Position numbers and translations under genes: made by a program. From Negaprion brevirostris (Eukaryota): a stretch of DNA of 64,000 bases. A model generated the notes under the pieces. That model was given only the letters and a program-made list of their open reading frames with translations, had not been told where the DNA came from and ran no database searches. This document shows, in pieces, positions 10,667 through 62,915 of the stretch. The stretch lies in contig JARDVH010000132.1 in NCBI GenBank assembly GCA_030324005.1, positions 88,835,350 through 88,899,349 on the forward strand, given 5' to 3'. The first letter of the stretch is position 1; the number at the start of each line of letters is the position of its first letter.

Positions 10667-10932
10667 GAATCCCTGCAGTGCAGAAGGAGGCCATTTGGCC
10701 CACTGTGTCTTCACTGACTCTGACAGAGCAACTTATCTGGCCGTGTCCTCTTAGCCCCACATATTTACCCCACTAATCCTCCTAACATACACATTTCGAG
10801 ACATTAATGGATAATTTACCATAGCCACACCTGGTCTGCACATCTTTGGATTGTGGGACGAAACCAGAGCAACCCGAAGGAAATCCAGGCAGACACAGGG
10901 AGAATGTGCAAACTCCACAAAAACAGTCACGA
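10667..10932 (-). mobile_element. V-SINE body and tail lacking the normal HE1 head
   Basis: Normal body from GTGACTGT...GTGGAGTTTGCAC to the tail; upstream sequence is tRNA-Gly-like rather than HE1 head. Confidence 0.88.
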
Positions 10933-10944
10933 AAGAAGTTGCTT

Positions 10945-11006
10945 TGCATTGGCTAGGAATCAAACCTGGGCCTCTTGCGTGGCAGGTGAGAGTTCTACCA
11001 CTGAAC
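10945..11006 (-). pseudogene. tRNA-Gly(GCC)-derived sequence lacking the first 9 nt
   Basis: Reverse complement GTTCAGTGGTAGAACTCTCACCTGCCACGCAAGAGGCCCAGGTTTGATTCCTAGCCAATGCA matches the recalled vertebrate tRNA-Gly-GCC at 54/62, all differences transitions and mostly at CpG; anticodon at 10981-10983. Confidence 0.9.
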
Positions 11007-20977: not shown

Positions 20978-21023
20978 AACTCGTTATGCAAATATGTCAG
21001 TACTAATCACAAGCATGGACTGG

Positions 21024-21312
21024 TTTTAGTTTACTTAAGTGTCACAAGTAGATTTACATTAACAGTGCAATGAAGTCACTATGAAAATCCCCTAGTCACC
21101 ACAGTCTGGTGCCTATTCAGGTACACTAAGGGAGAATTTTGCATGGCGAATGCACCCCACCAGCATGTCTTGGACTGTGGGGAGAAACTGGAGCACCTGG
21201 ATGAAACGCAGACACAAAGAACGTGCAGAGTCCACACAGACAGTGACCCAAGGCCGGAATTGAATCTGGGTCCTTGGTGCCGTGAGGCAGCAGTGTTAAC
21301 CACTGTGCCACC
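21024..21312 (-). mobile_element. V-SINE with an alternative 3' tail
   Basis: HE1 head and body, but the tail reads GACTAGGGGATTTTCATAGTGACTTCATTGCACTGTTAATGTAAATCTACTTGTGAC. Confidence 0.88.
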
Positions 21313-61004: not shown

Positions 61005-61078
61005 GTTAAAGTTTATTTGTTAGTCACAAGCAGGCTTACATTAACACTACAATGAAGTTACTGTGAAACTCCCCTATT
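61005..61078 (-). mobile_element. Isolated alternative SINE/LINE tail
   Basis: AAAGTTTATTTGTTAGTCACAAGCAGGCTTACATTAACAC...GAAGTTACTGTGAAA, the reverse complement of the tail at 62845-62915. Confidence 0.85.
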
Positions 61079-62031: not shown

Positions 62032-62637
62032 CTGCAGAAAGCAACTATCCAAGCTTGAATAAGGAGTACAAATATATATGGTGAACTTTTGCTTGACTAT
62101 CTTCAGGAGTCAGTGGTTAAATAGTGGAACACTTTCCATGATGGGATGGCTCTCAAAATAATAAATGATTTTTTTCTTGACTCACACTTGCTAACCTTTG
62201 CTCTTTATTTTATTACGTGGGTTGGAAGGAAACATTGCACCATTAAGTTGTAAATTTTGAGTTAATTTATGCATGCTGGAAATATAAAGTAGTTTATATG
62301 GGAACATGTCACTGTTCTATTTGCCTACACCTTCTTATTCTTCTGAATAAATACAAATCACAGCAAACAGTGCACATTGTCTTCTATAGGAAAATTTATA
62401 ATTATATTTAAGTCTGTGTTTTCTACAAGTTAACCAAAGAATTATACCATCAAAGGACAGCTCTTTGTCTTGACTGATGGTGTGTATCTTGGAAATAGGG
62501 AGAGGAAAGAGATTGACCAACTTAAGGTTGAGAAGATGAAGATTTGTGAAAGTGTTCTGACAATATTTTTAAAGGTTTGCCCTGGAGATGCAAAAACTCC
62601 CAGTAAAGACAGATTGACTGTCCTTCCCATTCATGTG

Positions 62638-62915
62638 CAGCATGGTGGCACAGTGGTTAGCACTGCTGCCTCAGAGTGCCGGGGACCCAGGTTTAATTCC
62701 CAGCTTGGGTCACTGTCTGTGTGGAGCCTACATGTTCTCCCCGTGTCTGCATGGGTTTCCTCCTGGTGCTCCGGTTTCCTCCCACAGTCCAAAGATGTGC
62801 TGGTTAGATGCATCGACCTGAACAGGTGCTGGAATGTGGCGACTAGGGGAATTTCACAGTAACTTCATTGCCGTGTAATGTAAGCCTTACTTGTGACCAA
62901 TAAATAAACTTTAAA
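62638..62915 (+). mobile_element. V-SINE with the alternative 3' tail
   Basis: HE1 head and body, then GTGGCGACTAGGGGAATTTCACAGTAACTTCATTG...AATAAATAAACTTT. Confidence 0.9.

What the first reader, a model, noticed from the sequence alone, without database searches (positions are those of the whole stretch)
10667..11006. V-SINE whose head is replaced by tRNA-Gly(GCC)
Seen: other head-bearing copies have the HE1 head ending ...GGTTCAATTCC..TTGGGTCACTGT. Here the body begins at the usual GTGACTGT junction but is preceded, in the same orientation, by 62 nt of tRNA-Gly(GCC) and a short spacer AAGCAACTTCTTTC that looks like a pre-tRNA trailer (no CCA). Known: SINE families arise by swapping Pol III heads onto conserved central domains. 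Inference: this may be an undescribed tRNA-Gly-headed V-SINE subfamily, or a single reverse-transcriptase template switch onto a precursor tRNA.
Basis: partly seen in the sequence, partly recalled or inferred. Interest (0 to 1): 0.7.

Follow-up and report, generated by a model that had tools for sequence, protein, structure and literature searches.

The report
Raw tRNAs capping shark SINE copies
A single decayed jumping-DNA copy carries an unprocessed glycine tRNA on its front; it is not a new family but one of dozens of such fusions in this genome, likely made when the copying enzyme jumped onto a newly made tRNA, and many of the fusions stop at the same tRNA base, likely where a chemical tag blocked the enzyme.

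Summary
Observation confirmed (minus strand): tRNA-Gly(GCC) nt 10-71, a 14-nt trailer without CCA, then a headless HE1-type V-SINE body. The junction is single-copy, so no Gly-headed subfamily. The fusion is not rare: HE1 follows on the same strand in 17 of 39 Gly, 17 of 30 Leu and 11 of 20 Tyr tRNA ends (antisense 1, 1, 0; chance under 1%). Caps come from several genes, keep a short leader, trailer and intron, never CCA (0 of 39), also sit on CR1-like LINE ends, and chain with U6, U2, 5S and 7SK. In searches blind to 5' extent, 11 of 12 shortened caps begin at tRNA positions 57-60, as expected if the enzyme stalled at m1A58. Best reading: recurrent end-to-end jumps of a LINE reverse transcriptase onto nascent Pol III transcripts, the U6/LINE chimera mechanism with a new substrate. 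Trees could not reject one origin, and no empty site was seen for this locus. This scan noted such fusions before in other genomes; I found no note or paper on the position-58 stop. The window copy itself is likely dead.

The parts
10945..11006 (-). nt 10-71 of tRNA-Gly(GCC); 5'-truncated, lacks the first two A-box positions; anticodon at 10983-10981
   Evidence: 54/62 identical to intact gene L016, 6 of 8 changes at CpG; Rfam tRNA 25.8 bits
10957..10965 (-). B box (T-loop) with one CpG transition
   Evidence: alignment to gene
10931..10944 (-). pre-tRNA 3' trailer ending in a short T-run, no CCA; last base may be untemplated or from the trailer (not resolved)
   Evidence: same kind of trailer behind gene-like copies; same trailer start at two other loci with other partners
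10667..10930 (-). HE1-type V-SINE body from position 75 to the tail; own tRNA-like head absent; 9 of 97 stable columns changed
10919..10923 (-). T5 run early in the body, not in the majority sequence of copies; predicted Pol III stop
10667..10726 (-). tail of type A, sharing a short 3' motif with LINE-like partners; terminal repeats mostly lost; no target-site duplication seen
   Evidence: score 20 against shuffle maximum 12 with L036; weak or at shuffle level for the other 6 partners

Best explanation
This is a single-copy fusion of a 5'-truncated, trailer-bearing tRNA-Gly to a headless HE1-type SINE body, likely made in one insertion when a LINE reverse transcriptase copying the SINE RNA jumped onto the 3' oligo-U end of an unprocessed tRNA. 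It is one of a recurrent class: caps from many genes on two SINE tail types and on LINE ends, sometimes chained. A third of caps stop at tRNA positions 57-60, predicted to be a block at m1A58. The window copy is likely inactive (A box clipped, B box mutated, T5 run in the body).
For: Adjacency 17/39, 17/30 (30 of 36 hits fetched), 11/20, antisense 1, 1, 0. 0 of 39 Gly caps have CCA. 14 of 17 Leu caps are CAA-type and all 14 hold intron sequence; all 7 full-length Tyr caps hold the intron (read). Likeness to gene L115 upstream is limited to about 4-7 nt in 9 full-length Leu caps shown. Several trailer, leader and intron types, so several source genes. Tail types among capped copies 20A:8B, uncapped 57A:23B, p=1.0. 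Majority sequence of 31 Gly caps equals the gene at all 71 columns. Shared derived changes per pair: same small RNA 0.85, different small RNA 0.88, same Gly trailer 0.73. Other partners: LINE-like 3' ends, U2 piece, U6, 5S, 7SK (Rfam). 11 of 12 shortened caps start at 57-60 (rough p about 1e-12); m1A58 is reported on trailer-, leader- and intron-bearing human pre-tRNA (10.64898/2026.05.17.725798, passages). In 2 of 48 capped copies cap and SINE together interrupt an older repeat whose two sides are collinear (L009, L124).
Against: No empty site for this locus: one related organism's contig runs from the flank into the tail, two others stop matching just before it with 38-39 unlike letters left. 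No target-site duplication signal (mean longest match 5.05 against 4.95 for shuffled pairs). Trees are star-like, and AU tests did not reject one clade for Gly caps (p 0.062, 0.69) or for this copy with L050 (0.93). Divergence of cap and body does not correlate per copy (rho -0.24, p 0.11, n 45) and caps look younger (7.0% against 10.0%). No intact gene with exactly this trailer was found. This copy does not itself stop at 57-60 and is 1 of only 5 of 64 caps whose SINE alignment starts after position 20. No enzyme was tested.
Confidence: 0.8

Rival explanations
1. RNA ligation before copying: the pre-tRNA was joined to the SINE RNA (as proposed for U6/L1) and the hybrid RNA was reverse transcribed.
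For: Gives the same sense-oriented product (PMC13174262, passages). This copy's SINE part starts at the end of the tRNA-like head, where a cleaved RNA could begin. The position-58 stop fits ligation equally well.
Against: 59 of 64 caps sit on a SINE that starts within its first 20 nt; a primary Pol III 5' end is a triphosphate and a pre-tRNA ends in 3'-OH, which RtcB-type ligation does not join (recalled). One or two extra bases are common at junctions.
Confidence: 0.08
2. A dimeric or Gly-headed SINE subfamily amplified from one or a few master loci; this copy is a member or a deleted member.
For: One Gly trailer type dominates (20 caps). AU tests do not reject one clade. 37 of 57 tRNA spacers have no run of 4 T, so read-through is possible in principle.
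Against: Junction unique; no shared derived change in caps or bodies; label not clustered on trees (14 changes against 14.1 shuffled; 8 against 5.6); the same trailer sits on both tail types, on LINE ends and on other small RNAs; the trailer also stands behind gene-like copies L012 and L047.
Confidence: 0.05
3. Two separate events: a tRNA gene or pseudogene lay here and a 5'-truncated SINE inserted at its T-run, by chance or by targeting of tRNA terminators.
For: No empty site seen at this locus. SINE copies are dense (0.24 per kb). L038 keeps about 45 nt of gene-like upstream sequence.
Against: Chance is under 1% per site against 44-57% observed, with strand bias. Capped copies lack gene flanks beyond a few bases. 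13-17-nt tRNA ends with trailer cannot be genes. Cap and SINE interrupt host repeats as one block in L009 and L124.
Confidence: 0.04
4. The short caps come from cleavage in the T-loop or a structural stall, not from m1A58 (rival to the position-58 step only).
For: Starts spread over 57-60 and 7 of 11 have A at 58; full-length Gly caps show little misreading at 58 (1 of 31, but many were selected by patterns that fix this base).
Against: The same position in two unrelated tRNAs, with almost nothing between 6 and 56 (1 of 36 caps); m1A58 is on pre-tRNA.
Confidence: 0.25

Closest known systems
U6/L2 and U6/Mon-1 chimeras of platypus, U6/AnolisSINE2 of anole, U6/L1 of mammals (PMC4476161, passages)
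   Same: Pol III RNA fused in sense to the 5' side of a SINE or a truncated LINE, often 5'-truncated, short or no target duplication, read as template switching. U6 caps occur here too (6 of 29 loci directly on HE1).
   Different: Substrates here are mostly unprocessed pre-tRNAs of many genes with leader, intron and trailer; partners are HE1-type SINEs and CR1-like ends (that paper had one unresolved U6/CR1 case); chains of 3-4 RNAs; a position-58 stop.
Human tRNA/LINE-1 chimeras (PMC13174262, passages)
   Same: tRNA fused to a non-LTR element in one insertion.
   Different: There 21 loci, mostly tRNA halves in antisense (twin priming); here sense, 3' end plus trailer always present, and far more frequent per tRNA.
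SINEU of crocodilians (PMC4494074, passages) and head-swapped SINEs (PMC4824008, PMC5499810, passages)
   Same: Small-RNA sequence added at the 5' end of a SINE, attributed to template switch.
   Different: Those amplified from masters with shared structure; here abundant uncapped partners exist and no shared junction lineage was found, the case that paper calls independently generated chimeras.
HE1 V-SINE of sharks and rays (named in PMC4824008)
   Same: Body and LINE-like tail match the abundant SINE of this genome.
   Different: Own tRNA-like head missing; identity with published HE1 not checked against a library.
Pre-tRNA tailless retropseudogenes of mammals (Schmitz et al. 2004, seen only as cited in PMC4476161; paper not held)
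   Same: Retrocopies of precursor tRNA, pointing to nuclear capture.
   Different: Those are 3'-truncated and stand alone; here the 3' end is complete and joined to a retroelement.

Membership tests
New tRNA-Gly-headed SINE family | Many copies with the same head-body junction and different flanks | tested here: not met
   one copy
New tRNA-Gly-headed SINE family | Diagnostic changes inherited from a master | tested here: not met
   trees uninformative
New tRNA-Gly-headed SINE family | Intact A and B boxes and no internal T-run | tested here: not met
   A-box start missing, B box mutated, T5 at 10923-10919
New tRNA-Gly-headed SINE family | Absent from Dfam/Repbase | not testable with these tools
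   no repeat library on hand
Small-RNA/non-LTR template-switch chimera (U6/LINE type) | Small RNA 5' of the element, same strand, directly fused | tested here: met
Small-RNA/non-LTR template-switch chimera (U6/LINE type) | RNA origin of the 5' part (ends at transcript 3' end, no gene flanks) | tested here: met
   trailer ends at T-run; class-wide leader of a few nt, position-58 stop
Small-RNA/non-LTR template-switch chimera (U6/LINE type) | Independent origins: varied junctions and partners | tested here: met
Small-RNA/non-LTR template-switch chimera (U6/LINE type) | One insertion: shared target duplication or empty site | tested here: inconclusive
   no duplication signal, no empty site for this locus; collinear host repeat in 2 of 48 other caps
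Small-RNA/non-LTR template-switch chimera (U6/LINE type) | Jump by the enzyme rather than RNA ligation | not testable with these tools
   needs biochemistry
HE1 / V-SINE | 80-bp V central domain | tested here: inconclusive
   matches the genome's abundant SINE; published consensus not available, label recalled
HE1 / V-SINE | 3' tail shared with a CR1-type LINE | tested here: inconclusive
   short motif shared with LINE-like ends, above shuffle maximum in 5 of 7 but clearly only in L036; CR1 label recalled from translated motifs
Functional tRNA gene | Complete cloverleaf | tested here: not met

The most novel reading that the evidence does not exclude
The LINE enzyme of this lineage routinely finishes by jumping onto nascent Pol III transcripts, so the genome holds a fossil sequencing library of germline pre-tRNAs: thousands of SINE and LINE copies (rough extrapolation, about 1% of HE1 5' ends) capped with leader-, intron- and trailer-bearing tRNAs, U6, 5S and 7SK, with a stop at m1A58 that records an RNA modification on precursors from long ago. 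It is a countable supply of trial SINE heads, of which none found here spread.
Probability: 0.55. Interest if true: 0.7.

Novelty: new variant of a known kind. Interest (0 to 1): 0.55.

Why it matters
Head swapping by template switch is the standard but rarely observed account of how SINE families begin. Here the proposed first step can be counted, traced to single tRNA genes and compared with the number that spread, which makes the birth filter testable. The unprocessed substrates place the switch in the nucleus. The position-58 stop would be an RNA modification read from genome sequence alone, and gives a sharp in vitro test. Practically, such caps inflate tRNA gene counts: ARAGORN calls some of them genes, one with a changed anticodon (L008, L010, L030, L135). 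The single window copy matters little on its own.

Tried and rejected
Trees of capped and uncapped bodies: star-like, AU tests uninformative. Target-site duplications: no excess. Cap-body age correlation: none (the script stopped with an error after printing these figures and was finished). Idea that this copy's start at nt 10 marks m1G9: only 1 of 39 HE1-borne Gly caps starts there and G9 changes are not enriched (5/31 against 39/425, p 0.21); rejected. Sequencing runs: no RNA holder listed; 4 of 22 runs laid on the downstream flank and 3' part of the body gave no empty site and could not show the cap. Host-repeat test for this copy: flanks are not repeats in the loci at hand; L036 looks nested in a LINE by eye, but the script found no collinear partner. 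Dropped rows: L077 was lost to de-duplication (38 of 39 scored; all 39); 6 of 36 Leu hits and 18 of 48 U6 matches not fetched; 5 of 27 hits had neither tRNA nor SINE and were set aside as chance. Papers not held: PMC155270, PMC3242629, PMC524414. Literature searches that found no report of pre-tRNA caps on shark SINEs or of a position-58 stop in retrocopies: (open-licence PMC and bioRxiv only; Repbase, Dfam and subscription journals not seen; no supplements read).

Full report
What is there. The window is G000:C132:88835350-88899349 of a 2.69-Gb assembly. On the minus strand 11006-10945 is nt 10-71 of tRNA-Gly(GCC): 54 of 62 bases match an intact gene of the same genome, and 6 of 8 differences are CpG transitions. 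A 14-nt spacer without CCA follows, then 264 nt of the genome's abundant SINE from its position 75 to the tail. The copy is likely dead: the A-box start is missing, the B box is mutated and a T5 run lies early in the body.

Is it a family? No. The 18-nt tRNA-end-plus-trailer pattern has 3 matches: this copy, one on a full-length HE1 and one on a short LINE-like end. The junction with up to 3 mismatches gives this copy and one unrelated hit; a gapped pattern for any Gly cap on a headless body gives this copy and 3 chance hits. This copy shares none of its 9 derived changes with the full-length copy that has the same trailer start.

It is one of a class. A pattern for the tRNA-Gly 3' end that says nothing about what follows gave 39 hits. 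HE1 follows on the same strand in 17 and on the other strand in 1. By my reading the rest are 3 LINE-like ends, 1 U2 piece, 1 probable HE1 cut by a gap, 13 gene-like copies and 4 unclear. For Leu, 17 of 30 fetched hits (36 in all) and for Tyr 11 of 20 carry HE1. Background is 38 HE1 5' ends in 288,405 nt, about 0.2% per 30-nt slot on one strand. A search from the SINE side (18 hits) added caps that I read as Glu, Asp and Cys (labels recalled; Rfam gave only a weak match for the Glu-like one), and 6 cases of another SINE head in front of HE1. Of 29 U6 loci, 6 lie directly on HE1.

The caps are primary transcripts. None of 39 Gly caps on HE1 has CCA. Fourteen of 17 Leu caps are of the CAA type and all hold intron sequence; all 7 full-length Tyr caps hold the intron. 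Likeness to gene L115 reaches only about 4-7 nt upstream and ends at the T-run downstream. Different trailers go with different leaders and intron types, so several genes were sources. Some loci are chains: Gly, Leu-like piece, U6 (L030); U6, 5S, 7SK (L170); tRNA, U6, Glu-like piece, HE1 (L161); Leu with intron, U6, HE1 (L158).

Independence. Capped bodies have the same mix of the two tail types as uncapped ones (20:8 against 57:23). The majority sequence of 31 Gly caps equals the gene at every column. Pairs with the same cap share no more derived changes (0.85) than pairs with different caps (0.88). Against this, trees are unresolved and cannot reject one clade, so a small amplified subset is not excluded.

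One insertion or two. In 2 of 48 capped copies the whole unit lies inside an older repeat whose two sides are collinear (L009, L124). For the window copy this is not shown: no target duplication, unique flanks, and in 4 of 22 public runs one organism carries the tail at the locus while two contigs end unresolved just before it. Cap and body divergence do not correlate.

The position-58 stop. Two searches fixed only the last 10-11 nt of the tRNA and the trailer. Of 20 Gly caps, 15 start at nt 1-5, one at 14 and 4 at canonical 58-60. Of 16 Leu(CAA) caps, 9 are full length and 7 start at canonical 57-60. So 11 of 12 shortened caps start in a 4-nt window, rough p about 1e-12 for a uniform spread. 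m1A58 stalls reverse transcriptases (established) and is reported on human pre-tRNA with trailer, leader and intron (10.64898/2026.05.17.725798, passages). I infer a block at m1A58; cleavage or a structural stall in the T-loop is the rival. Patterns that include the T-loop miss this class, so my first counts are underestimates. The window copy stops at nt 10; a like explanation by m1G9 found no support.

Mechanism. Most likely the LINE enzyme primes on the SINE tail, copies to or near the 5' end, and jumps end to end onto the oligo-U end of a nascent Pol III transcript, sometimes several times. Template jumping as a model is described in PMC2912911 (passages) and for U6 chimeras in PMC4476161. 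Ligation first is less likely because most partners begin at their primary 5' end (59 of 64), but it is open for this copy. Whether this copy never had the SINE head or lost it later is not resolved.

Scale. With about 7-10% non-CpG decay, exact patterns of 17-19 nt would recover roughly a fifth to a quarter of copies, which suggests near 100 caps per tRNA type tested and thousands in all, about 1% of some 300,000 HE1 5' ends. This is an extrapolation, not a count.

Known and new. The mechanism class is known (U6/LINE and U6/SINE chimeras). Human tRNA/L1 chimeras differ: 21 loci, halves, antisense (PMC13174262, passages). Ten searches of the held library found no report of this class in sharks or of the position-58 stop; repeat databases, subscription papers and supplements were not seen. 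PMC5499810 was read in part (part 1 of 6 and passages). Earlier notes of this scan describe pre-tRNA-SINE fusions in other genomes; my reading was set before I looked, and a look-up for the m1A58 stop gave nothing. Verdict: the single element is an ordinary dead member of a recurrent class; the class, with its unprocessed substrates, chains and position-58 stop, is a new variant of a known kind. Interest 0.55.

Noticed in passing
L170:1501-2033: U6, 5S rRNA and 7SK copies joined head to tail with no SINE or LINE found directly behind.
   Followed up: partly
L030:1491-1761; L161:1400-1691; L158:1480-1720; L008:1492-1990; L123:1400-1724: Chains of two to four Pol III RNA copies, some ending on HE1; Val-, Ala-, Glu- and Cys-like labels are recalled.
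   Followed up: partly
L068:1450-1625: tRNA-Gly cap from nt 10 with trailer, joined to the 5' end of U2 snRNA (Rfam 40.5 bits); an assembly gap follows.
   Followed up: partly
L159:1501-2687: Near-perfect U6 fused directly to a 365-aa open frame with an RVT_1 hit (E 1.6e-14); looks like a young U6/LINE chimera of another clade.
   Followed up: partly
L087, L090, L091, L093, L095, L103 (around 1400-1550); L038, L149, L222: The head of a second tRNA-derived SINE stands directly before HE1 at varied junctions (6 of 18 hits); may be the same jumping onto short SINE transcripts or a dimer family.
   Followed up: no
window 21023-21312, 61005-61076, 62637-62914; L089:1550-1860: The SINE body occurs with two unrelated tails (about 70:30), suggesting two partner LINEs.
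   Followed up: partly
L108:428-473, 1439-1521, 2015-2060: A young, nearly intact tRNA-Leu(CAG) cap on HE1 lying between histone 3' stem-loops; good candidate for an empty-site test.
   Followed up: no
L038:1390-1509: The one Gly cap with about 45 nt of gene-like upstream sequence; a long leader or an insertion into a gene copy.
   Followed up: no
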